NCBI GenBank assembly: GCA_027459725.1
Contig: DAIDHK010000007.1
Location: 261 to 64,260, forward strand
Length of the DNA stretch: 64,000 bases
Direction: 5' to 3'
DNA from: Candidatus Levyibacteriota bacterium
GTDB lineage: Bacteria; Patescibacteriota; Microgenomatia; Levybacterales; UBA12049
A program made the translations under genes and the position numbers. Positions 1 through 13,748 of the stretch are shown piece by piece; position 1 is the stretch's first letter; the number at the start of each line of letters is the position of its first letter. Below the pieces are notes generated by a model that made no database searches, had not been told where the DNA came from, and was given only the letters and a program-made list of their open reading frames with translations.

Positions 1-3000
1 CTTAGGGTGTTACTACTGCTGAAAAATTGTATGTTCCCTGTTGATGACCCATTTAGTGTTAACGTATTCGTGCTACTCGCTGTTAATGACCCCGCCCCTG
101 CAAATGTTAATCCCGTCGCACTCGTGTTGATCGTATCTAGTGATGCTACCCCACTGAGTGCCCCTCCTGTCGTAACGTTTAATCCCCCACTGGATGTTAA
201 CGCAAATGTCCCGCTGCTGTTTCCAATCGCAGTTGATGCCGTACCTGTCGTGTTGATATTTGTAGCCCCTGCTACGCTTAATCCACCGTTGAGTGTCTGT
301 AACCCTGTCCACGTATTAGCATTACCTAAGTTTATCCCTAACGTGTATGGACCACTCCCACTTCTCGTCAACGTTGAGTCTGTACTGTTGTTTACAAATA
401 AATTACTTCCTCCCGGACATGTTCCCCATACAGGAGAACCAGTTGAAGCCCCTGAGGATAGAAAGCATTGCTGTGTCCCTGAAGTAGTTGTCGCCAGAGC
501 CAGTTGATTTGAAGTATTTAAATAAATAACGCTACTCTGATTTCCTGTACCTATGCCAGATAGCGTAATATTCCCAGCAGAACTCAGACCTGTCAATCCG
601 CTTATAACACCACTTGCGGTTATATTGCCATTGTTACCTATGGTAAATTTAGTATTTCCAGAACTACTGGCAGTAAAAATATCATTGGTTATCGCCCCTA
701 TCTGATTGACCACTTCTGCCGCATTTCCACCAGTATTTCCCCCATTAACGCTCAAAGTTCCAACCGGTGAATTCGTACCCACACCCAAGCTACCATTTAT
801 AAATGCAACATTTGAACCACTAGAATTGCTCAATACCAAAGCATCTTCATAACCGCTGCTAGTAAGATTAGGCAGTTCAAAACCAATGCTTCTATAAATA
901 CGCCCTACAGCAAATTGTGTACCCAGGCGTAATTCATTATTACTCGAATCCATATACATAAAAGCATATGGGTTTACATTATTTGATACAAACGGATTAG
1001 CGTAAGGCGTCACATTACCGGAAAGTACCAGAACGCCGGTCTCAATAGCACCATTCCCCGCATCAATTGTTTGTCGGGGAGATGTTGTTCCTACCCCTAA
1101 AAATCCACTTCCATTGGAATTGATCAACACATTCCCGGTGGTATTGTATGCAGAAGAGTTCCCTAAAGTTAAATTACCATCATTTGTAGTTGCCAATGTA
1201 CCATCTCCTGTTAAATATACAGCGTTATTTCCGCTATTGGCCGATATACTAGCCACTGGAGTACCTGTATTGTTATTCAAAAATGCAAATTTGGCGCTGG
1301 CTGTACTCGTCCCACCTACAAACAGATCTTCTGTGGCATTTAAAGGATAGATGGAACCATTACCACTAGTAAACAAACTCGTACTTCCTCCTCCTCCGGA
1401 GCCACAGCTACCCCAACTTGGCGAACTGGCACCATTAGAGACTAAACATTGCCCCGATGACCCAGCCGTAGTAAATGAGTAACTACTCCCGTTACTGTAA
1501 GCGATAGATCCAGCCGAACCAATGCTGCTAATGCCTGTTCCCCCACTTGAGACTCCTACTGTGGTAGCGGATAGTAGTCCTGACGAGGCTTGTAAAACAC
1601 CATTGCCTAAGCCTGTAAAATCAATCGAACCTGTAGCTGTAATATTATCAATATTTACTAGGTTACCATTATTATCAATTCTTTCTATCCCCGCTCCGGA
1701 ACCTGAATTAATACCTGTCGTACCGTTCAAAATTGTACCTGTGATTGTACTGGCGGCATTTAGAGCACCGGCCGTAGTGACATTAAAATTGGAGCTGGTA
1801 ATATAATTACCACCTGTTGCAGTTGCACCTGCTAAACCTAGCGTACCAGCACTGTTAATTGAAGCTTCTTCATTACCATTAACTCTAAAAGCAAAATTAT
1901 TATTAGTTGTATTTACTCCTAATGCATAATCATATAACAGACCAGCACTACCACAACCCTCGGTAAAAGTACATTGAATATGTAATGAACCAGGTCCTAA
2001 GAACAGATTTCTAAATCTAGCCGAGCCGCTGGCACCTAAATCGGTAACATTATCAGTTGCCGGAGCTAAATACCCATCTATAGCACTATTACGTGGATTA
2101 ACAATAATGTTACCCGTACTACTGGTGCCCAGTGTTAAAGTCTGAGCATTGGTGGTTCCCAAAACTCCGGCGCCCGATAAATATGTAGCATTATTGGTCG
2201 TATTAGCAGAAATACTGGCTGTAGGCGTACCGCTGTTAACATTAGTGAAGGCAAATTTGGCAGACGAAGTGGATGCACCACCGATCAATAAATCTTCAGT
2301 TGAATTTATTGGATAAATTGCTCCCTGTCCGGCATTAAATAAGTTAGTTCCGCTGCCTAATGTGCAATCACCCCAGATAGGAGCGCTTGTCCCGCCCGAG
2401 AGCAAACACTGATTACTGCTTCCCACTCCTGTAAATTGATAGCGGGTTCCATCTGAATACAAAACTGTTCCCCCTAACCCGATAGAGTTAGTATTAGTAC
2501 CTCCATCATTTATTCCCAGAGTACCTGTAACCTCATTGCTCTCCAAATGAACAGGACCACTACTCAAAACACCTGATGCTGAAAAATGAGCAATGCCGAT
2601 AGAGCCTGTGGCATAAGCTGTACCACCTGCAGTAATCGTCCCGTCATTGGCAATAGTAAATTTAGTAATACCCGATGAACTTGCAGTAAATATATCGTTT
2701 GTATTTGCACCATTCTGATTGACAATAAGCGCAGCATCTCCATTATTTACACCCCCGCTGATACTTAAGTTGTTATCCGTTGCTAAAATTTGAGATCCGG
2801 AGTTATATAAATCTACATTTCCATTAGTGCCGCTAATAGTCAAACCGGTGTTGGCGGTTGTATTGCTTAATAATAGGGCGTTCTTACCAGAAGCTCCTAT
2901 AGACAGATTGCTGGAGAAATTACCCGTACCACCTACATTCAAAGTTGAGCTTCCTCCTGCCTGTCCAATGCTAACAGTTCCATTATTGTTTATATTCATT

Positions 3001-6000
3001 ACATTCAAGTTATAACTGCTATTACCAACATTGGCTGTTTGAATATTTAAACTATCACCGTTTAACAAATCCAGAGTTTGTGTGGCACTAGACCCAACTG
3101 GCACTGTCAAAGAGTAGTTAGTATTAAAAAGGAAAGAAGGATTTGTGTATCTCATACCTACTACTGCAAAGACAGCACTACTGGTAGCAGACGATCCCAA
3201 CAGAAAATCGGTTGTTGGATTACCGGGATATAATGCTCCGTTGGTAATCTCCCAGTAATTAGAACCAACCGTTGACTGATCCTGCCACACAGGTCCACCA
3301 GATCCTCCATTTGAAACCAAAACCTGACCGCTGTTACCTGCTGAAGTGAAATATAACGGGCCATTGGTCCCACCAGAGTATGGCACAGATCCATAAGGAC
3401 CAAATGAAGTAGTACCAGTTCCTCCATTACCTACAGGTAAGGTATTGGTTACATCTGTCGTAAGATTAACTAGTCCGCTGGAAATATTTCCATTACTATC
3501 AAAATGCGCCACGCCTGTTGAATACTTCTTGTCCGTAATTGTTCCATCATTAGCTATTGTAAATTTAGTTATACCCGAACTACTGGCACTGAAGATGTCA
3601 TTTGAAGTACTTCCGATTTGATTAACCACAAATGCTGAATTGCCTCCACTGTTTCCTCCTTCAACATCTAACAGAGCAATTGGATTGGTAGTACCAATGC
3701 CAATATTACCATTATCGTAGATGTCTCCGTCTCCCAATGCATAGGTGCCTGTAAATTTAGCAATATAGTTTGTAATTCCATTCCCACCCAAACTGGCTGA
3801 AGATCCTGAACAGTTTCCGCTCGAATCACAAAGAGTCCGGTTACCCCAGTATAAATATCCAGACGGCGCTCCTGTAGTACCGGTAGTATTTAAAATATCA
3901 TTTATCCCACCAGCCACACCTAATCTAACACCCCCATTGATATCTAACAATTCCTGGGGGTTAGTAGTTCCAATACCTACAAATCCACTTGGGGAAATAG
4001 TCAGTGCAGTATGAAAATAACTTGGAGTATCTCCGCCTGGGCTGGTATTAAAAGTCAGGCTGCTGCCGTTATACAAATTAAAGTTGGCTGCAGCATTTAC
4101 GCCTGTTGGCACCTCCAACGCAAGATTCCCCGAAATGGAAGCAGTAGGATTACCCGTTCCTGAATTATTGATAAAAGCAAATTTGGCACTATCTGTAGAT
4201 ATTCCACCCAATAACAAATCATTACTCAAAAATTTTGGTGAGACAGTTCCCTGATATTCACTCCAATAATTCACGCCCACCGAGCTTGAACTGGTCCAGC
4301 TAGGTGTACCTGTACCATTAGAAATTAAAACATCTCCCAATGTCCCGGATGAAGTAAATCCATAAGCCGTTCCAGTGGAATAAACGATGGAACCAGCAGT
4401 ACCTACAGAGTTATTTCCGGTACCACCTGAACCAAGAGGCAATAGACCACTCACCTCACTTGTTAAATTTACCAGGCCACTAGTTATGGTCCCATTAGAG
4501 CTCAAATGAGCTATTCCTGTAGTCAAATTTGCCAATCTCACGCTGCCATCACTGCCTAAAATCAAAGAGGAAGCCAATCCGCTATCTCCACCCGGAGAAA
4601 AATTGAAATTAAATGACCCTCCGTTTAAGACGTTCAAACTACCCATAAAATTGTTGCCAGTGGGTGCGCTTAATGAAAGATTACCTGAAATAGAGGCAGA
4701 ACGAGTATTAGTGGTAGTGCCAAGAAAGGCAAAGGCGGCAGAAGGAGTTGACTGACCTCCAACCAACAGATCAACTGAATTATCTGCAGGAGTGATAACC
4801 CCATTACCTTCATTCCAATAATTAGTTCCTACTGATCCTGAGCTTACCCAGCTGGGGGCACTGGATCCGTTGGAAATTAAGACCTGCCCAGGATTACCTT
4901 GGACCGTAAAGCTATATCCAGTACCGTCAGAATAAGCGACTGTGCCGGCACTGCCCAAAAAAGTAGTATTAGTTCCGCCTAAGCTGACTGGCAAAGTTCC
5001 AGTCAGATCAGATCCACTAGTTAAATCTATCAAACTACTACTTATTGTTCCATTTGAGCTAATATGTGCCACACCGGTGGTTAATTGAGGCAGCTGTACA
5101 CTCCCGTTATTATTCAAAACAAAACTTGAAGTTAAGCCGCTATTGCCACCTGGTGAGACTTCAAATGATAAAGCTCCTCCATTGAAAATGTTTAAACTAT
5201 TTGAGCCACCAACACCTGTAGGAACTGATATGGATAAATTGCCGCTTATGCTTGCTGAACGAGTAGTGGAGAGTACACCTGAAAACGCAAAAGCCGCCGA
5301 ACTAGTGGCGGTGCTTCCGATTAATACATCGTTAGTTTCATTACCCGGTGATATGGCACCGCTGCCTTGCTGCCAGTAGTTGACTCCTAAAATACAATTT
5401 CCCCATCCCGGTGCGCCTGAACCATTTGATACCAGACACTGATTAGCGGTCCCTTGGGTTGTGAAGTCATAGTAAGTTCCGTTCGAATAAGCGATTGTCC
5501 CAACAGGTCCTAAGTAAGTGGTATTGGTTCCACCCCGGTTAATTGGCAGTGTACCAATCACATCTCCACTAGCCAAGGCTATCTGACTGCTGCTCAAATT
5601 TCCGTTAGCATCGAAGTGAGCTATCCCTGTAGATAAACCTGACATCTGTATCGTACCGTCATTCTTTATAACAAACCTAGTCATTCCAGAACTGCTTGCA
5701 GTAAAGATATCTCCATTACCTGTCTGATCAATAATTCCAGCTGCCATACCAGCCACTGATGATGACCCCTGGACATCCAGCAATCCTAACGGCGCAGCTG
5801 TACCAATTCCGATATTACCTGCAGTGTAGTAGAGACTGCTTCCATTAATTAACCATTGGCCATTTCCTCCCGTTCCGTTGGAAGAAGCAATAGTAATAAT
5901 CTTGTTCGCTGCATCTGTCGTCAAAGTAATCCCGGTACCGGAAGCAAAGTTTAAAGTGTCATTGTTACTGCCAGCTGTGATTGTACTCTGTCCGCTGACA

Positions 6001-7103
6001 GCTATGTTTTTAAAAATATTTTGACTTGAGCCTAAATCATTTGCTGAAATCTGTAATCCATCAATAGAAATTCCTGAACCCGCATCCAATGTTAACGCAC
6101 CCGTCTGCCCCTGCAGACTGGTTTGTGTAACCGTAGAGCTAATGGTTGGCGTTTGACCGGAACTGATACTAATTCCTGACCCGGCTTTTACTCCATAAAT
6201 TAAATTAGCGCCTGTCACATTTCCTGAACCTGCGTCAATATTGGCATTGTTAGTAGTAATCCCCCCGTTCAAGATTGATAACCCATTAGCTGTTAAAGCC
6301 TGACCTACAACTAGAGTTTGCTGAGCACTCACTGAAGAGGAAAAAGTAGTTTCCTGCTTAAAAAGCGATGGAATCGAAACTGTAAATTGTAAATCAGGAT
6401 TGACACTTGCTGCACCAAGTACAGACTGAAATTCATTTCCTTTTAGATCCAGGGTAGTAACAGCTGATTTAAATAAGTTGTAATTTAGCCAGCTATTGCC
6501 TAACCACTGAGGCTTAAAAAATAAAACAGAACTAAGAACAAACAAACTTAAAATTAAGCCCGAAGACGTAAATATGAAATATTTTGATATATTTCTATGC
6601 TTTTTGTTAGCTTCTTCAGAATTTTCAGAGTATAAATTTTCATATGGCATTACATCCGCTGGTGGCTGATAAGCCGCAATTCGTTCATTCAAATCACGTT
6701 GCCTTTCCTGTTCCCAGGCATAACGCTGTGCAATAGTGGCAAAGCCAAGATATTGTTCTTGTTCCTCTGTTTCTTCATTTTCAGTTGCATAATCAAGATC
6801 TAACTTAGGAACTACTATATTTTTTTCAATTGTTGAGATTGGCATCTCCTCAGTTTGAGGCAGGTTTGCTTCCAGAGCTAATTTCCGTAAAGCCTTTTGT
6901 GGATTTTTTTTCTGCAGTAGTTTTCTAAAGGCCCGTAGTTGTTTAACAGTATAACGACGCTGGTTTCCCTGAGTTCGGATGGAGACTAATTTAGCGCTTT
7001 CGTCCCAACGTCTTAAAGTTTGAGTGGAAACATGCAGGTAATCTGCCGCCTCTTGAACGGTTAATTTTTGTACACTTTCTTTGGACAGGGACAGATCTTT
7101 CAT
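1..7103 (-). CDS. Giant surface fibre protein, partial: start codon at 7103, continues past window position 1 (at least 2360 aa in window). N-terminal excisionase/MerR-type HTH, one TM helix (FIFTSSGLILSLFVLSSVLFF), then a huge repetitive ectodomain rich in G/S/T/N with tail-fibre-like motifs
   Basis: Hand translation of the minus strand from ATG (rc of cat at 7101-7103) gives MKDLSLSKESVQKLTVQEAADYLHVSTQTLRRWDESAKLVSIRTQGNQRRYTVKQL..., and the frame stays open to the window edge. The codon just upstream of the ATG is a stop. The ORF track omitted it because it has no stop inside the window. About 7 units recur every roughly 110 aa (e.g. LISNGSSAPSWVSSGSVGTNYWNEGNG), together with LPxxxGGTGxT and GNIGIGTTNPxxLLDV motifs reminiscent of phage tail fibres. 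Confidence 0.8.
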   Translation of the reverse strand, partial: MKDLSLSKESVQKLTVQEAADYLHVSTQTLRRWDESAKLVSIRTQGNQRRYTVKQLRAFRKLLQKKNPQKALRKLALEANLPQTEEMPISTIEKNIVVPKLDLDYATENEETEEQEQYLGFATIAQRYAWEQERQRDLNERIAAYQPPADVMPYENLYSENSEEANKKHRNISKYFIFTSSGLILSLFVLSSVLFFKPQWLGNSWLNYNLFKSAVTTLDLKGNEFQSVLGAASVNPDLQFTVSIPSLFKQETTFSSSVSAQQTLVVGQALTANGLSILNGGITTNNANIDAGSGNVTGANLIYGVKAGSGISISSGQTPTISSTVTQTSLQGQTGALTLDAGSGISIDGLQISANDLGSSQNIFKNIAVSGQSTITAGSNNDTLNFASGTGITLTTDAANKIITIASSNGTGGNGQWLINGSSLYYTAGNIGIGTAAPLGLLDVQGSSSVAGMAAGIIDQTGNGDIFTASSSGMTRFVIKNDGTIQMSGLSTGIAHFDANGNLSSSQIALASGDVIGTLPINRGGTNTTYLGPVGTIAYSNGTYYDFTTQGTANQCLVSNGSGAPGWGNCILGVNYWQQGSGAISPGNETNDVLIGSTATSSAAFAFSGVLSTTRSASISGNLSISVPTGVGGSNSLNIFNGGALSFEVSPGGNSGLTSSFVLNNNGSVQLPQLTTGVAHISSNGTISSSLIDLTSGSDLTGTLPVSLGGTNTTFLGSAGTVAYSDGTGYSFTVQGNPGQVLISNGSSAPSWVSSGSVGTNYWNEGNGVITPADNSVDLLVGGQSTPSAAFAFLGTTTNTRSASISGNLSLSAPTGNNFMGSLNVLNGGSFNFNFSPGGDSGLASSLILGSDGSVRLANLTTGIAHLSSNGTITSGLVNLTSEVSGLLPLGSGGTGNNSVGTAGSIVYSTGTAYGFTSSGTLGDVLISNGTGTPSWTSSSSVGVNYWSEYQGTVSPKFLSNDLLLGGISTDSAKFAFINNSGTGNPTASISGNLALEVPTGVNAAANFNLYNGSSLTFNTSPGGDTPSYFHTALTISPSGFVGIGTTNPQELLDINGGVRLGVAGGINDILNTTGTTGAPSGYLYWGNRTLCDSSGNCSGSSASLGGNGITNYIAKFTGTYALGDGDIYDNGNIGIGTTNPIALLDVEGGNSGGNSAFVVNQIGSTSNDIFSASSSGITKFTIANDGTITDKKYSTGVAHFDSNGNISSGLVNLTTDVTNTLPVGNGGTGTTSFGPYGSVPYSGGTNGPLYFTSAGNSGQVLVSNGGSGGPVWQDQSTVGSNYWEITNGALYPGNPTTDFLLGSSATSSAVFAVVGMRYTNPSFLFNTNYSLTVPVGSSATQTLDLLNGDSLNIQTANVGNSSYNLNVMNINNNGTVSIGQAGGSSTLNVGGTGNFSSNLSIGASGKNALLLSNTTANTGLTISGTNGNVDLYNSGSQILATDNNLSISGGVNNGDAALIVNQNGANTNDIFTASSSGITKFTIANDGTITAGGTAYATGSIGIAHFSASGVLSSGPVHLESNEVTGTLGINDGGTNTNSIGLGGTVLYSDGTRYQFTGVGSSNQCLLSGGTSAPIWGDCTLGSGTNLFNAGQGAIYPINSTEDLLIGGASTSSAKFAFTNVNSGTPTASISANTTNNATYLSGAGVLGTTNAQTLTLGTSSTGNIIVNPRNSAIDGYLAPATDNVTDLGASGSARFRNLFLGPGSLHIQCTFTEGCGSAGLLYDYALGVNTTNNNFAFRVNGNEEASINSAGTLGLAGATATGGNYITSSNFNVTTAGALNAASTITGTILNGTTGINSGSGAGIERIDNNGNLVNIDNITATGSIDFTGLGNGVLQASSGLLSATTVGVSSGGTGISSIGSAGSIAYSNGSSYSFTTAGSSGQCLVSNGASSPSWGSCGSGGGGSTSLFTSGNGSIYPLNATEDLFVGGTSTASAKFAFLNNNTGTPVASISANSGNNAVYLTGDGTLATTNDGNLTLGNSSAYNTTGNVLINSNGSGFLGVGTTSPRQTIDAGNGAIETGVLVLSGNVTPYANPFVSNNVNPYAFMYMDSSNNELRLGTQFAVGRIYRSIGFELPNLTSSGYEDALVLSNSSGSNVAFINGSLGVGTNSPVGTLSVNGGNTGGNAAEVVNQIGAITNDIFTASSSGNTKFTIGNNGNITASGVISGLTGLSSAGNITLSGIGTGNQSSVIYLNTSNQLALATTTSGTQQCFLSSGASTGSPVWGTCPGGSNLFVNNSTDSTLTRSGSGPYTLGINLGNANTWTGLQTLNGGLSVAGATNINTTGTASTAIGNSSGTFALTSSGGLNVTTGGALSGVASLDTINTSATGLTFAGAGSLTASSTNTLTLNGSSTGNIQFFSSSNTL
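300..5500 (-). repeat. Degenerate in-frame tandem repeats of about 330-345 nt (about 110-115 aa) inside the giant gene
   Basis: At least 7 protein-level repeats share the core [LF][LIV]S[NG]G[ST]..P.W...C/S..G.NYW/LF. Examples are the rc of 5425-5465 (LVSNGSGAPGWGNC) and the rc of about 370-430 (FLSSGASTGSPVWGTCPGG). Boundaries are approximate. Confidence 0.6.
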
Positions 7104-7226
7104 AACTTAATCAAAAACTTATACAAGTTTGAGTCTAAAACGAAATTTTTATTGCTTACTTCATTGAAGCAATTTTTCACAACGCTGTCAATGATTATTA
7201 AGCATAATTTTGAGGCTATTTTTTTA

Positions 7227-7255
7227 TTGACTTTTGCAAATCTTTTCATTAGAGT
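7227..7255 (+). promoter_or_regulatory. Putative sigma70-like promoter for the atp operon (TTGACT, 17 nt spacer, TAGAGT)
   Basis: TTGACT at 7227-7232 and TAGAGT at 7250-7255 with a 17-nt spacer, in the divergent intergenic region between the giant gene start (7103) and the gene at 7317. Confidence 0.3.
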
Positions 7256-7316
7256 AAAAGCAGAGGATAAATTTGTGTCGAAACTTATACATTTTTTTAG
7301 CAAAATAAGTCCTATA

Positions 7317-8087
7317 ATGTCTTTATTCCTACTACTTCTTTTACTAGAAATTGTTTCTCCATTGACATCAGTTTTCGCGCAAACATTGTCTACAGGAGTA
7401 GCAATTTATGTAGATATACCTGGACAGACCGTACAACCTGGATCTATAATCAGTTTAAGTTCTCATGAATATAAACTAAGCAGCATTGCCTATGACCCTA
7501 CTGCAATAGGTGTGGTCATTAAGGATCCATCTGTATCCCTAGAAAACCCTCTTTCTATATCAAAATATTCCTATCCGATCATTCATGATGGAAAAGCCTA
7601 TGTTCTCGTCAACACCTCAAATGGAAATATTCAGACAGGTGATCCACTAACTACATCAAACACACCAGGAATAGCTCAAAAGGCTACAGAAGATGGCTAT
7701 GTAATTGGTACTGCCTTAGAAAACTACGACAATACAAATAAACTAAAATCTGCACTGATTCTTGCTAACATTACTTTTACTTTACGATCTAAACCAATTA
7801 ATAGTAAAACACAAAATCTGTTTTCTTCTTTTCAACAAGCATTTAATACAGGTTATGTCTCCCCTGCCACAATTATCCGCTATATAGCAGCTGCTCTGGT
7901 AGTCATCCTTTCTTTTCTGTTGGGTATCGGTTACTTTGGCCGAATAGCCACAGCAGGTATAGAAGCATTAGGCAGAAATCCATTGGCCAGCAATCTCATC
8001 TGGACAGGAATCGTATTTAATATTTCAATCATGCTGCTTTTAATCATAATTGGCATCGTCATAGGTTATTTTATTCTGGTTATTTAG
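7317..8087 (+). CDS. Secreted domain fused to a C-terminal ATP-synthase-subunit-c-like helical hairpin, sitting in the atpE position (degenerate c homolog lacking the conserved carboxylate)
   Basis: Signal peptide MSLFLLLLLLEIVSPLTSVFAQ, then a hydrophilic domain of about 190 aa, then IAAALVVILSFLLGIGYFGRIATAGIEALGRNPLASNLIWTGIVFNISIMLLLIIIGIVIGYFILVI. The loop IEALGRNP matches the c-subunit loop IEGIARQP/LEGAARQP, and LIIIGIV matches LPIIGVV in helix 2. The position that normally holds the essential Glu/Asp aligns to Leu/Met. The gene lies immediately upstream of atpF. The track start at 7068 overlaps the divergent giant gene; ATG 7317 is preferred and 7191 is an alternative. Confidence 0.55.
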   Translation: MSLFLLLLLLEIVSPLTSVFAQTLSTGVAIYVDIPGQTVQPGSIISLSSHEYKLSSIAYDPTAIGVVIKDPSVSLENPLSISKYSYPIIHDGKAYVLVNTSNGNIQTGDPLTTSNTPGIAQKATEDGYVIGTALENYDNTNKLKSALILANITFTLRSKPINSKTQNLFSSFQQAFNTGYVSPATIIRYIAAALVVILSFLLGIGYFGRIATAGIEALGRNPLASNLIWTGIVFNISIMLLLIIIGIVIGYFILVI

Positions 8088-8156: not shown

Positions 8157-8867
8157 ATGTTAGTTGCACCTGCCTTTTTATTATTAATAATTCTAACTAC
8201 TATCATCCTAGCTATAGCTGTATTATCAGTAATTGCCAAGTATGAGAAGTCCATTCATCAGTTGCGAGAAATTCTAAGAGAAAACATGAGTTTGAAAAAT
8301 ACAACACAAAGCAAAACGAGAAAGGCCTTGGAAAAAGTACACAAACAAACTGAAGAAATTATTCAACAAGCAAATAAGAAAGCCGAAGCGATTATTGAGG
8401 ATGCTCACCAGTTTCAGAATAATGAACGTGAAACTTTTCTTAACAAACTTAAAGAACTTACCCAAATGCACAGCAAAGCTCTTGATGAAATAAATGAAAA
8501 TCTACATGGCGAGTACAAGAATTCCCTAACTGGAGAAGAGTCTAAGGCTGAACAAATATTTCAAACTGCAACGAAAGATATCGAAGATTTGGCAGATCAG
8601 GAGCTCGCCCAACTGAAATCACTTTTAGAAAAAGAAACTATCGACAGACAAAAAGAGGTAGATGCAAAGATAGCCAAAGAATATCAAGATGTAGAAAAAG
8701 AGCTACAAGCTTACCGTCAACAGAAACAACAAGAGATAGATAAACAGGCACAAGCTAAGTTAAAAGATCTGATATATGCCACACTGGGGGAAAGTTTGAG
8801 TCCTGACCAACAGGAACAATTGCTGGTAAATGCGGTCAAAAATGCAGCGAAACGACAAAGTTTATGA
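8157..8867 (+). CDS. atpF: F-type ATP synthase subunit b
   Basis: N-terminal single TM helix followed by a long charged coiled-coil (K/E/Q-rich). Its position in the operon precedes delta. Confidence 0.75.
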   Translation: MLVAPAFLLLIILTTIILAIAVLSVIAKYEKSIHQLREILRENMSLKNTTQSKTRKALEKVHKQTEEIIQQANKKAEAIIEDAHQFQNNERETFLNKLKELTQMHSKALDEINENLHGEYKNSLTGEESKAEQIFQTATKDIEDLADQELAQLKSLLEKETIDRQKEVDAKIAKEYQDVEKELQAYRQQKQQEIDKQAQAKLKDLIYATLGESLSPDQQEQLLVNAVKNAAKRQSL

Positions 8868-9343
8868 ATAACATAACTACTTCTATTTCCCCACTTCTGG
8901 CAGTAATCTATACACGGGAAGAAGCGGAGAAGGTGCAAGATATTTTAAGTGATTCATTAGATTCACTCTACAAAGTACATCATAACAATACTTTATCAAT
9001 CTTATTAGATAATCTCCCTGCTCACATAGGGGAGGTTTTAAAAGATCAGATCGAACAAAAACAAATTGACGTACAAACACCTGAGGCTATAAAAAAAATT
9101 TGTGATAGTTTAGCTTTGGCATTAAAAAATACCGACTTACTAACTTTAAGCCTTGCTTTTGAGCCTAGCTTTGAATTGACACAGAAAATAGCCAAACTCA
9201 TAAAAACTGAGTTTGGTGGAAATACTTTGATTGAAATAGAAGTAGACCCGCATGTAATGGGAGGAGCCATAATTACTTTCAAGGGACAGTATTTTGACTA
9301 TTCATTAAAAACTAAAATAGATCATTTTCTCAAATCGCAATAG
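8864..9343 (+). CDS. atpH: F-type ATP synthase subunit delta (OSCP)
   Basis: A 159-aa helical protein between b and alpha; the 4-nt overlap with atpF is typical of operon coupling. Confidence 0.65.
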   Translation: MNNITTSISPLLAVIYTREEAEKVQDILSDSLDSLYKVHHNNTLSILLDNLPAHIGEVLKDQIEQKQIDVQTPEAIKKICDSLALALKNTDLLTLSLAFEPSFELTQKIAKLIKTEFGGNTLIEIEVDPHVMGGAIITFKGQYFDYSLKTKIDHFLKSQ

Positions 9344-9359
9344 CGATTGGTTATGCACA

Positions 9360-10898
9360 ATGGAAGTTTTTACTCAATACTTAGAACAGTTCAATGAGAT
9401 TGGTTACGTACAGGAAACCATCAGCTCACTGGTGTATGTCTCTGGATTACCCTCTGCCCACCAACAAGAAATGCTCATTTTTGAGAATGGTGTCATTGGC
9501 ATGGTGGGCAATATCACCCAGGAGCTTGTGGAGGTTTTTGTCTTTGCCGCCGAACCTCTTAAGGTAGGCACTAAAGTTGCTCGAACTAACCAGCTTTTTT
9601 CTATTCCCGTAGGTGAAGAATATCTAGGAAATGTTGTTGATCCCTTCGGTAAGTTGCTGGATAAATTTAACTCACTCACCCCACCTAAGACTATGCGTCA
9701 GATTGATTCCCCTCCAGGGGATATTTCTACCAGAAAACGCGTTAACCGTACATTTGATACCGGAATTACGCTGGTAGATATTTTAATCACTTTGGGCAAG
9801 GGCCAGCGGGAATTGGTTATTGGAGATAGAAAAACTGGTAAAACGAACTTCTTATTTCAAACGTTAGTTACACAAGCGCGCCAAGGGGCAATTTGTATTT
9901 ACGCAGCAATTGGTAAAAAACGACTTGATATTAAAGCAGCGGAAACATATTTTAAAAAACAAAATATTTTGTCCCAGACAGTCATCATGGCATCTACCTC
10001 TGATGATCCATCCTCTGTGATCTATATCACTCCTTACTGTGCGATGACACTGGCTGAGTATTTTCGGGATCAGGGCCATGATGTTGTCTTAGTGTTAGAT
10101 GATCTTTATACGCATGCTAAATTCTATCGTGAACTTTCATTGTTGGGAAAACGATTCCCTGCTCGCAATTCCTATCCAGCCGATATTTTTTACACTCATG
10201 CACGTCTATTGGAACGAGCAGGTAACTTTATATCACCTGATGGCAAAGAACGCGCCATAACGTGTCTACCGGTCGCAGAAACTGTACAGGGAGATATGTC
10301 TGGATATATCCAAACTAATTTGATGTCTATGACCGATGGGCACATCTATTTCGACATCGATTCTTTTACACAAGGTCGACGACCTGCTGTGAATCCTTTT
10401 CTTTCTGTCAGTCGTGTCGGACGACAGACTCAGACGGATTTAAAGCGCAGCATCAGTCGTGAAGTATTGAGTTTTTTAACCTTACACGAACATATGGAGC
10501 GCTTTTCTCATTTTGGAGCAGAGGTTACACCAACAATTCGTGACACTCTCAGTACAGGAGAGAGAATACAGCATTTTTTCGACCAGAAAACAGATGTAAT
10601 ACTAGACAGTAATTTACAGCTATTTCTTTTCACTATTCTGTGGTTCGGTTACTGGAATAACAGACCATTTGAGCAAATGAAAAAAGAAGTTGAACAATTA
10701 GTTAAAATATATAACACTGATACAGACTTTCATCAAAAAGTTGACCAGATGACGACAACTAATAAAACTTTAAATGACTTTATGCGGGTAGTAGCTAAAA
10801 ACGTTATACCTTTTTTGGATAAACTATTTCCTCCCTTAATCGCTCCGGCAAATGCTACACCAAACATACAACCTGTAAACAGCAATACTAAATCTTAA
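9360..10898 (+). CDS. atpA: F-type ATP synthase subunit alpha
   Basis: Contains GDRKTGKT (the alpha P-loop GDRQTGKT) and conserved alpha-subunit blocks (DDLYTHAKFYRELSLLGKRFP); 512 aa. Confidence 0.92.
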   Translation: MEVFTQYLEQFNEIGYVQETISSLVYVSGLPSAHQQEMLIFENGVIGMVGNITQELVEVFVFAAEPLKVGTKVARTNQLFSIPVGEEYLGNVVDPFGKLLDKFNSLTPPKTMRQIDSPPGDISTRKRVNRTFDTGITLVDILITLGKGQRELVIGDRKTGKTNFLFQTLVTQARQGAICIYAAIGKKRLDIKAAETYFKKQNILSQTVIMASTSDDPSSVIYITPYCAMTLAEYFRDQGHDVVLVLDDLYTHAKFYRELSLLGKRFPARNSYPADIFYTHARLLERAGNFISPDGKERAITCLPVAETVQGDMSGYIQTNLMSMTDGHIYFDIDSFTQGRRPAVNPFLSVSRVGRQTQTDLKRSISREVLSFLTLHEHMERFSHFGAEVTPTIRDTLSTGERIQHFFDQKTDVILDSNLQLFLFTILWFGYWNNRPFEQMKKEVEQLVKIYNTDTDFHQKVDQMTTTNKTLNDFMRVVAKNVIPFLDKLFPPLIAPANATPNIQPVNSNTKS

Positions 10899-10900
10899 TT

Positions 10901-11755
10901 ATGGCCAATAAAATAGAAATAACCAATTTAAATAATCAGATTAAAGGCATACAGAACTTAATTGAAACTTATGAAGAACTAGCAGCATTGCAGATGCGTA
11001 AAAACCGGACTCGTGTAGTTAATAGTCGTTCTTTTATCGAGGATTTGGTGACAATTTATCATGAGCTAATGATTGCTTACCATCGTCAAGCAATGACACG
11101 TCTGAAAGAAAAATTTGCTAAGCAGCAAACTCCAGGACGCACGATTGCGGTCCTTCTGTCATCCAACGTGGGTCTGGTGGGAGAAATCGTTCAACAAACA
11201 TTTAAACTTTTTTCAGACTATATCACAACACATCCTTGTGATATCATGGTAACGGGAAGAATTGGACAAAAAATGATGATGAACCACTTCCCTGACAAAA
11301 AATTTCTTTATTATGAATCATCAGACGAAAATATTGACCCTCAACAGTTATCTTTCATGATCAATATGCTCACTGGTTATGAGAAAATATATATTTTCTA
11401 TGGAAAGTTTAACTCCTTTGCTTCGCAGACCCCCTACGTACTTGATGCACGCGGAGAACAGGAAAAACTTTCAGTACAAAATGTACCTTTAATCCAATAT
11501 CTTTTTGAACCCAGTTTAAACGAGCTATTCCATTTTTTCGAAACACAAATTTTCTCCACTATAATCGAACAAACCTTTCGCGAATCCAATCTGGCAAAAT
11601 ATGCCGCCCGTATGGTAGCTCTCAATAGTGCCACAGACAACGTTAGCAAATATCTTAAGAAACTTAATTTACAACAAAGAGTAATTACGCACCGCATTTC
11701 TAATCAAAAGCAGCAACAGGTCTTTACGAGTATGTCGTTATGGAAATTGCGCTAA
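10901..11755 (+). CDS. atpG: F-type ATP synthase subunit gamma
   Basis: A 284-aa protein between alpha and beta, with N- and C-terminal helices typical of gamma (LAALQMRKNRTRV...; a C-terminal helix). Confidence 0.75.
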   Translation: MANKIEITNLNNQIKGIQNLIETYEELAALQMRKNRTRVVNSRSFIEDLVTIYHELMIAYHRQAMTRLKEKFAKQQTPGRTIAVLLSSNVGLVGEIVQQTFKLFSDYITTHPCDIMVTGRIGQKMMMNHFPDKKFLYYESSDENIDPQQLSFMINMLTGYEKIYIFYGKFNSFASQTPYVLDARGEQEKLSVQNVPLIQYLFEPSLNELFHFFETQIFSTIIEQTFRESNLAKYAARMVALNSATDNVSKYLKKLNLQQRVITHRISNQKQQQVFTSMSLWKLR

Positions 11756-13445
<1,690 letters not shown>

Positions 13446-13517: not shown

Positions 13518-13748
13518 ATGAGCGATCAAAATACTATTAACGGCAACCATCAAATTTCTATCCAATCTTTACCCGATTTATTAACAGTTCGGGAAGTAGC
13601 AGAAATTTTGAGAGTGTCTCCTCTTACCATTAAACGTTGGGGTAAACGAGGAAAATTACCTGCTATCCGCATTAACACCCGTGGAGATCGCCGTTACAAA
13701 AAAGAAGCTGTTCTCTGGTTACTGGGTATTCAACAAAAATCCGTTTAG
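13518..13748 (+). CDS. Small excisionase/MerR-superfamily HTH (HTH_17-like) DNA-binding protein
   Basis: LTVREVAEILRVSPLTIKRWGKRGKLPAIRINTRGDRRYKKEAV matches the Xis-type HTH. It is a paralog of the giant protein N-terminus and of the ORF at 42755. Confidence 0.7.
   Translation: MSDQNTINGNHQISIQSLPDLLTVREVAEILRVSPLTIKRWGKRGKLPAIRINTRGDRRYKKEAVLWLLGIQQKSV

What the first reader, a model, noticed from the sequence alone, without database searches (positions are those of the whole stretch)
1..7103. Giant tail-fibre-like surface protein anchored by a cytoplasmic excisionase/MerR-type HTH domain (gene missing from the ORF track)
Reading the minus strand shows an uninterrupted frame from ATG 7103 to the window edge (over 2360 aa). 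The track skipped it because it has no in-window stop. The N-terminus is a bona fide HTH_17/Xis-like DNA-binding motif (LTVQEAADYLHVSTQTLRRW...RRYTVKQL), followed by a charged linker and one TM helix. A ~2000-aa ectodomain follows, built from ~110-aa repeats with phage-tail-fibre-like motifs (LPxxxGGTGxT; GNIGIGTTNPxxLLDV). With the fibre outside, the DNA-binding domain must be cytoplasmic (N-in, type II topology). Standalone paralogs of the same HTH occur at 13518 and 42755. This suggests a ToxR/CadC-like one-component transmembrane regulator on a giant adhesin scale, or a tether between nucleoid or mobile DNA and a surface fibre.
Basis: seen in the sequence. Interest (0 to 1): 0.8.

Follow-up and report, generated by a model that had tools for sequence, protein, structure and literature searches.

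The report
Giant surface fibre with DNA-binding tail
An ultra-small (CPR/Microgenomates) bacterium encodes a surface fibre protein of over 2,367 residues whose short cytoplasmic N-terminus is a BldC/MerR-type DNA-binding domain. That domain most likely binds repeats in front of its own gene, so it looks like a membrane-tethered gene regulator built onto a giant adhesin, a combination I found no description of.

Summary
The minus strand from ATG 7103 to base 1 is one open frame of 2,367 codons. Residues 14-59 pass the Pfam HTH_17 and MerR thresholds. There is one strong TM helix (aa 175-196, N-in), followed by a G/S/T/N-rich ectodomain. Its repeats have a period of about 185 aa, not about 110.

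The architecture is a family, not an accident. 76 of the 80 best related loci keep HTH-TM-long ectodomain. A 78-80% identical ortholog is 3,220 aa, and relatives reach 5,762 aa.

The closest solved structure is Streptomyces BldC (40-42% identity, TM 0.74-0.77). BldC's DNA-contact residues are the family's invariant residues.

New here: the leader of the giant gene carries arrays of AACTT[G/A]GACA. The arrays are helically phased and about 27-fold enriched over other non-coding DNA. The base at core position 4 covaries with the recognition-helix residue that aligns with BldC Lys26: K/R goes with G, and Q/A/M with T.

Best reading: a membrane-tethered BldC-like autoregulator fused to a giant fibre. 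DNA binding and any signalling role are inferred, not shown. The gene also lies divergent from an unusual F-type ATPase operon in 72 of 81 loci.

The parts
1..7103 (-). Giant ORF (aa 1-2367; 3' end lies outside the window). The likely full length is about 3,200 aa, judged from the ortholog L001.
   Evidence: The translation has no stop. Ortholog L001 is 3,220 aa and 78% identical over aa 1-2009.
6867..7073 (-). Cytoplasmic BldC/MerR-like winged HTH (aa 11-79; Pfam match aa 14-59). The recognition helix is S26-T-Q-T-L-R-R-W33 and the wing is R43-T-Q-G-N-Q-R-R-Y51.
   Evidence: Pfam HTH_17, MerR and MerR_1 all score above threshold. AF2 pLDDT is 83-96 for aa 11-70, with topology b-a1-a2-b-b-a3. 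Best PDB matches are BldC 6amk/6ama: phmmer E about 2e-6; Foldseek TM 0.74-0.77, rmsd 1.4-1.7 A, 40-42% identity.
6582..6866 (-). Charged, mostly disordered cytoplasmic linker (aa 80-174) with one predicted helix at aa 115-144.
   Evidence: AF2 pLDDT is below 50 for aa 81-121, with a helix at 115-144. The linker is poorly conserved and its length varies between homologs.
6516..6581 (-). Single transmembrane helix (aa 175-196), acting as a signal anchor with N-in orientation.
   Evidence: Kyte-Doolittle 2.09, the only such segment in 2,367 aa, with basic residues on the N side. An equivalent segment is present in 76 of 80 related loci.
5883..6428 (-). Conserved membrane-proximal ectodomain module (aa 226-407; VLGA...NVIYG...GQTPTI...SSQNIFKNI...TITI).
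   Evidence: It contains invariant columns across the family. Residues 324-407 are 41-56% identical to proteins carrying Peptidase_S74 or Mtd_N domains.
564..5828 (-). Repetitive G/S/T/N-rich ectodomain (aa 426-2180). It holds ~185-aa repeats (three tandem copies at aa ~470-1030, others near 1185, 1486 and 1848) interspersed with GNIGIGT/DIFTASSSG modules.
   Evidence: Chunked self-BLAST gives a dominant offset of 184-186 aa, supported by alignment A3 and the motif positions. There are no Pfam or PHROG hits.
7112..7140 (-). Candidate operator in the leader of the giant gene. On the minus strand, TTAGACT lies at 7138-7132 and the palindrome AACTTGTATAAGTT at 7129-7116. This is the 'T-type' version of the family motif.
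   Evidence: In 80 related loci the family motif reaches 13.6/kb in the 130 nt upstream of the giant gene, against 0.50/kb in other non-coding DNA.
7163..7191 (-). Tentative promoter of the giant gene: TTGACA (7191-7186), 17 nt, TTCAAT (7168-7163).
   Evidence: Read from the sequence. The same CTTGACA-N17 layout occurs in 52-78 of the related loci. It was NOT flagged by the consensus scan, because the -10 hexamer has T at position 2.
7282..7291 (+). A single further copy of the motif (AACTTATACA), 26-35 nt upstream of the ATG of the divergent gene.
   Evidence: 3 of the 5 matches in the 64-kb window fall in the interval 7104-7316. This position is not conserved in other loci, so its relevance is uncertain.
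7317..8087 (+). Divergent neighbour ('cLike'): signal peptide, ~150-aa ectodomain and a C-terminal hairpin resembling ATP-synthase c subunit but lacking the ion-binding carboxylate. It is adjacent to the giant gene in 72 of 81 loci.
   Evidence: Its ectodomain is 34% identical (E = 6e-14) to aa 2817-2932 of the full-length ortholog L001.
8157..13445 (+). F-type ATPase genes b, delta, alpha, gamma, beta and epsilon. This is syntenic context, not shown to be regulated by the HTH.
   Evidence: Pfam and NCBIfam hits. The synteny holds in 60-64 of 81 loci.

Best explanation
The gene encodes a type II (N-in, C-out) membrane protein. A ~70-residue BldC-like winged HTH stays in the cytoplasm. A flexible ~95-residue linker joins it to one TM helix. 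More than 2,100 residues (about 3,000 in the full-length ortholog) form a repetitive surface fibre.

The HTH most likely binds an array of AACTTRNACA repeats. The array lies between the promoter and the start codon of its own gene, at roughly -5 to +45 of the transcription start. This would give negative autoregulation of a very costly gene.

The recognition-helix residue that aligns with BldC Lys26 appears to read core position 4 of the repeat. Most of the family has K with TTRGACA. This window has Q28 with TTRTACA/TGTATAA. The repeats are spaced 10, 21-22 or 32 nt apart. That places them on one face of the DNA, as expected for cooperative head-to-tail binding of the BldC kind.

The HTH is the first part translated and then becomes membrane-anchored. 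It would therefore act mainly in cis and hold its own locus at the membrane.

Shown here: the ORF, the domain assignment, the topology indicators, family-wide conservation, motif enrichment and the residue-base covariation.
Inferred: that this HTH is the protein that binds the motif, and that binding represses.
Speculative: that the state of the ectodomain (assembly, host contact, tension or proteolysis) modulates binding. If so, the protein would be a contact sensor.
For: Architecture:
- ORF, HTH and TM are confirmed.
- 76 of 80 related genomic loci keep HTH + TM + G/S/T/N-rich ectodomain. Complete ORFs are 672-3,483 aa.
- 558 cluster representatives match the family profile at E <= 1e-30. 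Of the 134 newly retrieved top hits, 74 have an N-terminal HTH plus TM, with lengths up to 5,762 aa.

DNA-binding competence:
- BldC is the closest solved protein by sequence and by fold.
- BldC contact residues T27, R30, W31, R47 and R48 (PMC5859096) align with T29, R32, W33, R49 and R50. These are invariant or nearly invariant in the family.

Operator:
- TT[GA]GACA and its complement occur at 13.6/kb in the 130 nt upstream of the giant gene. Other non-coding DNA has 0.50/kb and ORF-covered DNA 0.24/kb, over 1.07 Mb.
- Of 78 motif clusters, 51 lie immediately upstream of the giant gene and 16 lie further up, within 700 nt upstream.
- Same-strand spacings are 10 nt (16 cases), 21-22 nt (6) and 32 nt (8). 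Motifs start +30 to +70 from the -35 hexamer.

Covariation within the family:
- The G-type core is present in 71 of 82 K/R loci but in only 1 of 9 Q/A/T/M/I loci (Fisher p = 7e-6).
- The T-type core is present in 11 of 82 versus 7 of 9 (p = 1e-4).
- Unrelated soluble HTH proteins with the VSTQTLRRW helix also carry TGTATAAGG or AACTTAT(T/A)CA repeats at their own promoters.

Against other readers of the motif:
- The small conserved HTH at 13518 has an identical recognition helix in G-type and T-type loci.

Against an RNA hairpin:
- 33 loci have the motif in one orientation only.
- Between forward and inverted copies, A.C mismatches are about as frequent as G.U pairs (my reading of the listing).
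- The window's leader does not fold better than shuffled sequence (z = +1.2).
Against: - There is no direct binding evidence of any kind.
- The window's own operator is minimal: one palindromic pair and one half-site. Its promoter did not pass the consensus scan.
- The covariation statistics are not corrected for phylogeny. WIN and L001 are close relatives, and the Q-type loci may represent only 2-3 independent events.
- 9 of the K loci also carry a T-type copy.
- BldC Leu43, which matters for head-to-tail contacts, is Q45 here and variable in the family.
- The repeat period is 10 nt, whereas BldC's is 9 nt.
- A soluble paralog with the same helix could exist elsewhere in these genomes. Only 64 kb of this genome was available.
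- A membrane-tethered HTH must reach DNA. This is plausible in cells about 0.2-0.3 um across with a 25-170-aa linker, but it is untested.
- In loci with an inverted copy, the leader can form a significant hairpin (-10.3 kcal/mol, z = -2.8). An additional RNA-level role is therefore not excluded.
Confidence: 0.6

Rival explanations
1. Contact- or tension-sensing transmembrane regulator with other targets, working like ToxR/CadC, or like Notch and RsgI through regulated proteolysis. The fibre binds a host cell. This changes HTH clustering or releases the HTH, which then controls a regulon that may include the divergent ATPase operon.
For: - The topology matches known transmembrane transcription regulators (definition in PMC10269533).
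- The divergent pairing with the cLike/F-ATPase operon is conserved in 72 of 81 loci.
- One motif copy lies in the cLike leader in this window.
- How Patescibacteria switch between attached and free states is stated to be unknown (PMC11665869).
Against: - In K-type loci the motif shows no position preference upstream of cLike. It occurs in only 12 of 66 loci.
- Motif clusters outside the giant gene's own upstream region are rare.
- No protease site or partner was identified.
- This rival extends the best explanation rather than excluding it.
Confidence: 0.2
2. Architectural anchor rather than regulator. The HTH ties the gene's own locus or the chromosome to the membrane at the base of the fibre. 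RacA anchors the chromosome in a comparable way, and transertion couples a gene to the membrane. A >10-kb gene could then be transcribed, translated and exported in one place, with transcription control secondary or absent.
For: - RacA and Xis, which are architectural MerR-like wHTH proteins, are among the fold matches. BldC itself forms protein-DNA filaments.
- The HTH is made first and is followed by a signal anchor.
- The arrays hold up to 7 repeats (L009, L016, L029).
Against: - The sites overlap the transcription start and early leader, the classic position of a repressor.
- The motif is essentially confined to one locus, so this cannot be general chromosome anchoring.
- Anchoring and repression are not mutually exclusive.
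Confidence: 0.1
3. The HTH does not bind DNA. It is a cytoplasmic protein-interaction module, as in RodZ, whose HTH binds MreB. The conserved leader motif would then be read by another factor or would act as RNA.
For: - RodZ has the same HTH-TM-ectodomain layout (my own knowledge, not tested here).
- No binding data exist.
- Leaders with an inverted copy can form a significant hairpin.
Against: - The invariant residues are exactly BldC's DNA contacts.
- The motif base covaries with a recognition-helix residue, within this family and in unrelated proteins that share the helix.
- The other conserved HTH in the locus does not vary with the motif.
- Direct-repeat-only arrays cannot form hairpins.
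Confidence: 0.07
4. Artefact: a small HTH gene fused to a downstream fibre gene by an assembly or sequencing error.
For: None found. Giant repetitive genes are prone to assembly breaks, and most related contigs end inside the gene.
Against: - The frame is continuous here.
- The same fusion occurs in 76 of 80 independent assemblies, with 30-80% identity.
- It also occurs in database proteins from NCBI, ENA, JGI and Logan.
Confidence: 0.01

Closest known systems
BldC (Streptomyces), founder of the BldC family of MerR-like wHTH regulators (PDB 6AMA, 6AMK; PMC5859096)
   Same: - It is the best sequence and fold match (40-42% identity over ~50 residues, TM 0.74-0.77).
- It has no MerR coiled-coil or effector domain.
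- The DNA-contact residues are conserved.
- The candidate operators are head-to-tail direct repeats of about one helical turn.
- The position aligned with BldC Lys26 behaves as a base-reading residue.
   Different: - BldC is a free 68-aa cytoplasmic protein. Here the domain is the N-terminus of a membrane-anchored protein of 2,400 to over 5,000 aa.
- The repeat unit is 10 nt (AACTTRGACA), against 9 nt (AATTNNNNC) for BldC.
- BldC Leu43 is not conserved.
- The targets appear restricted to the gene's own leader rather than forming a developmental regulon.
ToxR / CadC / TcpP-type transmembrane transcription regulators (TTRs)
   Same: N-terminal cytoplasmic DNA-binding domain, flexible linker, single TM helix and an extracytoplasmic C-terminal part. 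Under the survey's definition (DNA-binding domain plus TM region) this protein is a TTR.
   Different: - The DNA-binding domain is MerR/BldC-type, not OmpR-type.
- The ectodomain is 10-30 times longer and fibre-like, not a compact sensor domain.
- MerR, MerR_1 and HTH_17 TTRs together made up under 2% of the 50,302 TTRs in the survey. No Patescibacteria appear in the text held.
Classical MerR-family activators (MerR, CueR, BmrR, SoxR)
   Same: The winged-HTH fold matches, and the Pfam MerR and MerR_1 scores are above threshold.
   Different: There is no long dimerisation helix directly after the wHTH and no effector domain. The promoter spacer is 17 nt rather than 19-20 nt. The sites are direct repeats downstream of the -10 element, not a palindrome within the spacer.
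RacA (B. subtilis chromosome anchor) and Xis-type excisionases
   Same: Both have a MerR-like wHTH used architecturally, and both appear among the fold matches. RacA links DNA to a membrane-associated site.
   Different: RacA is soluble and binds many origin-proximal sites. Xis proteins work with integrases on mobile elements. Here the motif is confined to one chromosomal locus, and no integrase is associated.
Phage tail fibres / Peptidase_S74- and Mtd_N-bearing fibre proteins; giant surface proteins of CPR and Omnitrophota
   Same: - The ectodomain is G/S/T/N-rich and repetitive.
- It carries GNIGIGTxxP and LPxxxGGTG motifs.
- An ~85-aa module is 41-56% identical to proteins with S74 or Mtd_N domains.
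- Its length is comparable to other giant bacterial surface proteins.
   Different: The ectodomain matches no Pfam or PHROG profile. No S74 chaperone domain was seen in the window part. None of the literature I found on giant proteins mentions an N-terminal DNA-binding domain.

Membership tests
Pfam HTH_17 / MerR N-terminal HTH | Score above the curated gathering threshold | tested here: met
   HTH_17 36.8 bits (cut-off 27), MerR 35.3 (28.2), MerR_1 33.1 (21.6), aa 14-61. The same holds in orthologs.
Classical MerR family | Long coiled-coil dimerisation helix directly after the wHTH, plus a C-terminal effector-binding domain | tested here: not met
   The AF2 model has short helices at 53-63 and 68-79, then pLDDT below 50 for aa 81-121. 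No further Pfam domain is found. The next conserved element is the TM helix.
Classical MerR family | Palindromic operator inside a 19-20-bp -35/-10 spacer | tested here: not met
   The spacer is 17 nt in the window and in most loci. The motifs start +30 to +70 from the -35 hexamer and are often direct repeats.
BldC family | MerR-like wHTH with conserved BldC DNA contacts (T27, R30, W31, R47, R48) | tested here: met
   The phmmer alignment to 6amk/6ama maps these to T29, R32, W33, R49 and R50. These residues are invariant or nearly invariant in the family. Contact residues are taken from PMC5859096.
BldC family | Binds head-to-tail on direct DNA repeats | not testable with these tools
   Indirect support only: direct repeats with 10, 21-22 and 32-nt phasing lie in the gene's own leader, and residue-base covariation is seen. 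Binding itself needs EMSA or footprinting.
BldC family | Hydrophobic head-to-tail interface residue (BldC Leu43) | tested here: inconclusive
   The equivalent residue is Q45 in the window. The position is variable in the family (A/P/V/I/S/T/D/E/K).
BldC family | Small stand-alone protein consisting only of the wHTH | tested here: not met
   The domain is fused to a linker, a TM helix and more than 2,100 further residues. The 76-aa ORF at 13518 fits this criterion instead.
Transmembrane transcription regulators (TTR, as defined in PMC10269533) | A predicted DNA-binding domain plus at least one predicted TM region in one protein | tested here: met
   The definition was read.
ToxR/CadC family | OmpR-type winged helix (Trans_reg_C) DNA-binding domain | tested here: not met
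   Trans_reg_C is not among the Pfam hits, even at E <= 1.
Excisionase / recombination directionality factor | Encoded with an integrase on a mobile element, acting at attachment sites | tested here: not met
   The neighbours are ATPase, glycosyltransferase and HIT/GalT genes. The chromosomal synteny is conserved in 72 of 81 loci.
Phage tail fibre / Peptidase_S74 fibre proteins | Profile match to tail-fibre or S74 families | tested here: not met
   Pfam and PHROGs give no hit for aa 201-2367. There is only local similarity of aa 324-407 to S74- or Mtd_N-bearing proteins. The C-terminus is outside the window. The L001 C-terminus shows LVIVD-like repeats and an unannotated PHROG.
RacA-like chromosome anchor | Many binding sites spread over a chromosomal region | tested here: not met
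   The motif is about 27-fold enriched only in the giant gene's leader. Clusters elsewhere number 11 of 78 over 1.07 Mb. Whole genomes were not scanned.

The most novel reading that the evidence does not exclude
The giant fibre, the divergent c-subunit-like membrane protein and the a-less, carboxylate-less F-type ATPase operon form one functional unit under the fibre's own DNA-binding domain.

The c-subunit-like protein shares an ectodomain module with the distal end of the fibre.

In this reading the fibre reports host contact or tension to the chromosome, through clustering or release of its BldC-like domain. It would also be physically or energetically coupled to an unconventional F1-type motor.

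This would be a contact-sensing, self-regulating attachment organelle of episymbiotic CPR bacteria.
Probability: 0.1. Interest if true: 0.92.

Novelty: new variant of a known kind. Interest (0 to 1): 0.72.

Why it matters
Patescibacteria (CPR) are a large fraction of bacterial diversity and live attached to host cells. A 2024 PNAS perspective states that it is unknown how they sense attachment and reprogramme themselves (PMC11665869).

This family joins a giant surface fibre directly to a sequence-specific DNA-binding domain in one polypeptide. It also comes with a predicted operator and a predicted specificity residue. That gives a concrete, cheaply testable candidate for surface-to-genome signalling, or at least for feedback control of the largest gene in these tiny genomes.

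The finding also extends the BldC family to a membrane-tethered, multi-thousand-residue context. It suggests a simple recognition rule (K/R reads G; Q/A/M reads T) that can be checked by point mutation.

Finally, it flags an odd F-type ATPase operon whose first gene is related to both the c subunit and the fibre.

Tried and rejected
- **AF2 of one 185-aa repeat** from six internal copies failed (pLDDT 38), so there is no fold assignment for the ectodomain.
- **AF2 of aa 1-408** was confident only for the HTH, one linker helix and the TM helix.
- **Profile search of the repeat against PDB** found nothing.
- **The search for homologous proteins with the repeat** returned no scored hit.
- **Pfam and PHROGs on the ectodomain** gave nothing.
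- **Rfam** found only tRNAs in the window.
- **RNA-hairpin reading of the leader motif:** rejected as the general explanation.
- **Co-regulation of the ATPase operon through the same motif:** not supported in K-type loci.
rejected.
- **c7 (a DeoR-HTH gene) as a general partner:** it is present in only 23 loci.
- **Paralogs of the ectodomain among the other large ORFs of the window:** none.
- **The consensus promoter scan** did not flag the promoter I read by eye.
- **Literature searches** for this architecture found only the generic TTR survey and giant-gene papers that mention no HTH.
Full report
**1. The observation**

The minus strand from ATG 7103 to base 1 translates into 2,367 codons without a stop. 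The ORF list skips it only because it has no in-window stop.

Residues 14-59 score above the curated thresholds of Pfam HTH_17, MerR and MerR_1. The only strongly hydrophobic segment in the whole protein is aa 175-196 (Kyte-Doolittle 2.09). Its N-side flank is basic (ANKKHRNISK) and its C-side flank nearly uncharged. The N-terminal 175 residues are rich in charged residues (E+K+R+D about 31%). The remaining ~2,170 residues are 53% G/S/T/N with few charged residues. Together this supports N-in, C-out topology.

The repeat period is 184-186 aa, not ~110 aa. Three tandem copies lie at aa ~470-1030 (52-58% identical), with more copies near aa 1185, 1486 and 1848.

The ORFs at 13518 and 42755 are indeed HTH_17 proteins.

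**2. Context and organism**

The flanking genes are an F-type ATPase operon, glycosyltransferases and tRNAs. GC content is 31-46%. The closest genomic relative is a Candidatus Levyibacteriota MAG, 80% identical at the N-terminus. This is a chromosomal region of a Microgenomates (CPR/Patescibacteria) bacterium, not a phage or mobile element.

**3. The fusion is a conserved family**

A database search with aa 1-450 returned many proteins with the same HTH Pfam domains covering 86-92% of the query. They come from Levy-, Shapiro-, Ames- and Roizmanbacteria, and NCBI names them 'MerR family transcriptional regulator, partial'.

A scan of one genome per GTDB species found 598 pattern matches, of which 461 were confirmed by tblastn. 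In 76 of the 80 best loci the HTH ORF has a TM segment 78-233 residues in, followed by a long G/S/T/N-rich tail (mean 48% G/S/T/N, 10% charged). Complete ORFs are 672-3,483 aa. Most others run off the contig end, as expected for repetitive giant genes.

The ortholog L001 is 3,220 aa and 78% identical over aa 1-2009. The window protein is therefore probably about 3,200 aa. The C-terminal part of L001 contains LVIVD-like propeller repeats, a further globular domain and a coiled coil.

An exhaustive profile search found 558 cluster representatives at E <= 1e-30. Of the 134 newly retrieved top hits, 74 have the N-terminal HTH plus TM, with lengths up to 5,762 aa. Four members (the proteins of loci L033, L043 and L064, and database protein P0011) carry two tandem HTHs.

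**4. What the HTH is**

The closest solved proteins by sequence are the BldC-DNA complexes 6AMK and 6AMA (E about 2e-6). A LitR/CarH-like protein and a mycobacteriophage Xis follow, and classical MerR proteins score only weakly.

AF2 models aa 11-70 at pLDDT 83-96 with the MerR topology. It then gives a short helix, a disordered stretch, one linker helix and the TM helix. Foldseek ranks BldC first (TM 0.74-0.77, rmsd 1.4-1.7 A, 40-42% identity), followed by NmlR, RacA, Xis and GlnR.

The BldC paper shows that T27, T29, K33 and W31 contact phosphates. K26 and R30 read major-groove bases. H46, R47 and R48 sit in an AT-rich minor groove. Protomers bind head-to-tail on 9-bp direct repeats (PMC5859096).

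In the alignment these positions correspond to Q28 (K in most of the family), T29, R32, W33, Q48, R49 and R50. T29, L30, R31, R32, W33, R43, G46, R49 and Y51 are the invariant columns of the family, while the linker is not conserved. There is no MerR-type coiled coil or effector domain. The domain is best described as BldC-like.

**5. A conserved operator-like array in the gene's own leader**

Comparing the 250 nt upstream of the giant gene in 81 loci revealed (A)ACTT[G/A]GACA. The core TTGGACA occurs in 53 loci, whereas the best k-mer in shuffled controls reached 28 loci.

The core and its complement occur at 13.6/kb in the 130 nt upstream of the ATG. Other non-coding DNA of the same loci has 0.50/kb and ORF-covered DNA 0.24/kb. 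Of 78 clusters of two or more copies, 51 lie immediately upstream of the giant gene and 16 lie further up, within 700 nt upstream.

The typical layout is CTTGACA-N17-TAxxAT, then two (up to seven) head-to-tail copies, often followed about 19 nt later by an inverted copy. Same-strand spacings are 10 nt (16 cases), 21-22 nt (6) and 32 nt (8), which is helical phasing. The copies start +30 to +70 from the -35 hexamer, or roughly -5 to +35 of the start site. That is a repressor-type position.

**6. DNA operator or RNA element?**

Thirty-three loci have copies in one orientation only. Where forward and inverted copies differ at the R position, my reading of the listing gives A.C mismatches about as often as G.U pairs.

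The window leader and a direct-repeat-only leader fold no better than shuffles (z = +1.2 and -0.4). A leader with an inverted copy does form a significant hairpin (z = -2.8). A DNA site explains all cases. An RNA role in some loci is not excluded.

**7. Residue-base covariation**

Only WIN, L001 and L006 have Q. Exactly these three lack TTRGACA and instead carry TTATACA/TGTATAA. In the window this is AACTTGTATAAGTT at 7116-7129, plus TTAGACT at 7132-7138.

A metagenome scan for VSTQTLRRW retrieved mostly unrelated soluble HTH proteins, in families of about 244, 206 and 680 aa. Their own promoters carry TGTATAAGG or AACTTAT(T/A)CA repeats. Among Q-type loci the central dinucleotide is AT in 26 of 40 motif instances and never GG. 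Among K-type loci it is GG or AG in 66 of 83.

I then fetched DNA for further family members with R, Q, T, M, I or A at this position. Within the giant family the G-type core is present in 71 of 82 K/R loci but in only 1 of 9 non-basic loci (Fisher p = 7e-6). The T-type core is present in 11 of 82 versus 7 of 9 (p = 1e-4).

These tests are not phylogeny-corrected. The pattern (Lys/Arg with G, Gln with the T:A pair) is chemically sensible and recurs in independent protein families.

The other conserved HTH of the locus is the 76-aa protein at 13518. It is 77-89% identical across loci and has an identical recognition helix in G-type and T-type loci, so it cannot be the reader of that base.

**8. 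Mechanism proposed**

The steps shown are the architecture, the BldC-like domain with its contact residues, the leader array and the covariation.

I infer that the HTH binds the array cooperatively on one face of the DNA and represses its own promoter. The HTH is translated first and is then anchored by the TM helix. It should therefore act largely in cis and hold the locus at the membrane. The flexible linker (25-170 aa across the family) and the very small size of CPR cells make membrane-tethered DNA binding plausible, as it is for ToxR and CadC.

Whether the ectodomain state modulates binding is speculation. Candidate inputs are assembly, host contact, tension or proteolysis.

**9. Synteny, and what it does and does not show**

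In 72 of 81 loci the giant gene is divergent from the same gene, which in the window runs from ATG 7317 to 8087. Genes for F-type ATPase b, delta, alpha, gamma, beta and epsilon follow in 60-64 loci.

In Woesebacteria-type loci a phosphoglycerate mutase gene is inserted after that first gene. In 23 loci a ~310-aa DeoR-HTH gene lies between it and the giant gene.

The first gene encodes a signal peptide, an ectodomain and a C-terminal hairpin. The hairpin matches ATP-synthase c subunits (PDB profile E = 2e-4) but has a hydrophobic residue where the ion-binding Glu should be. Its ectodomain is 34% identical (E = 6e-14) to aa 2817-2932 of the L001 fibre.

The window has one motif copy 26-35 nt upstream of this gene. 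In K-type loci, however, the motif shows no position preference there and occurs in only 12 of 66 loci. Co-regulation of the ATPase operon is therefore not supported. The conserved divergent pairing and the shared domain remain unexplained.

**10. The 'tail-fibre-like' claim**

The ectodomain hits no Pfam or PHROG family. Structure prediction of a repeat failed, and a profile search of PDB found nothing.

Support is limited to the short motifs and to aa 324-407. That segment is 41-56% identical to proteins that also carry Peptidase_S74 or Mtd_N domains. 'Fibre-like surface protein' is reasonable. Homology to phage tail fibres is shown only for that one module.

**11. Comparison with the known, and novelty**

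By the survey's definition this protein is a transmembrane transcription regulator. That survey counted MerR (386), MerR_1 (350) and HTH_17 (151) among 50,302 TTRs, and no Patescibacteria appear in the text held.

The BldC paper describes only small soluble BldC-like proteins and mentions no membrane fusion. The giant-gene and huge-protein papers I found do not mention an N-terminal DNA-binding domain.

I therefore file it as a new variant of a known kind. It is a BldC-like domain used as the cytoplasmic module of a single-pass membrane protein whose ectodomain is a giant fibre, with a predicted self-operator. It fails the membership tests for classical MerR, ToxR/CadC, excisionases and RacA-type anchors. 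It meets the domain-level tests for BldC, but not the 'small stand-alone protein' feature.

**12. Verdict**

My approximate confidence is:
- architecture and family: about 0.95
- a DNA-binding, self-regulating HTH: about 0.6
- a sensory or contact-signalling role: about 0.2

Interest is high for CPR biology and for the MerR/BldC field, because the prediction is specific (site, residue and swap) and can be tested in vitro without culturing the organism.

Noticed in passing
window 7317-8087 (+) and 8157-13445 (+): The F-type ATPase operon has no subunit a and no canonical c gene in the operon. Its first gene encodes a signal peptide, a ~150-aa ectodomain and a c-subunit-like hairpin (GVEAxGRNPLA loop). 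The ion-binding Glu/Asp position of that hairpin is hydrophobic. The ectodomain is homologous to a domain near the C-terminus of the giant fibre ortholog (L001 aa 2817-2932). The arrangement is conserved in 60-72 of 81 Microgenomates loci. Subunits a and c could be encoded elsewhere, because whole genomes were not checked.
   Followed up: partly
window 13518-13748 (+): A 76-aa stand-alone BldC-like wHTH lies just after atp epsilon. It is 77-89% identical across Levy-, Ames- and Woesebacteria-type loci whose other proteins are only ~30-45% identical. This is an unusually conserved small DNA-binding protein of unknown role.
   Followed up: partly
L002-L080, 0-5 nt before the ATG of the giant gene (absent in the window): The hexamer CTGCCC sits immediately before the start codon of most giant genes and a few ATPase-operon genes. 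53 of its 409 occurrences precede the start of an ORF of at least 60 aa. It is not a Shine-Dalgarno sequence and its function is unknown.
   Followed up: partly
L081-L134 (metagenome contigs): Unrelated soluble HTH proteins (about 244, 206 and 680 aa) share the recognition helix VSTQTLRRW. Each has TGTATAAGG or AACTTAT(T/A)CA repeats at its own promoter. The TLRRW...G(N/G)(Q/H)RRY wHTH therefore looks like a broad, self-regulating BldC-like subfamily.
   Followed up: partly
L058-L080 (Woesebacteria-type loci); L005 and 22 other loci: A 2,3-bisphosphoglycerate-independent phosphoglycerate mutase gene is inserted between the c-like gene and ATPase b in one clade. In 23 loci a ~310-aa protein with a C-terminal DeoR-like HTH lies between the c-like gene and the giant gene.
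   Followed up: partly
record titles of L004, L007, L013 and other loci: Many GTDB species-representative MAGs that carry this Microgenomates-type locus are titled 'uncultured Gammaproteobacteria' or 'Pseudomonadales' (binchicken co-assemblies). A few are titled Acidiferrales, Alphaproteobacteria or Phycisphaeraceae. These are probably placeholder or mis-binned labels.
   Followed up: no
window 7068-8087 (+): The mechanical ORF call starts at TTG 7068 and overlaps the giant gene's start. Family length (250-280 aa) and the signal peptide MSLFLLLLLLEIV point to ATG 7317 as the true start. That leaves a 213-bp divergent intergenic region (7104-7316).
   Followed up: yes
L033, L043, L064; protein P0011: Some family members carry two tandem copies of the HTH before the TM helix. 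This fits binding to adjacent direct repeats.
   Followed up: no
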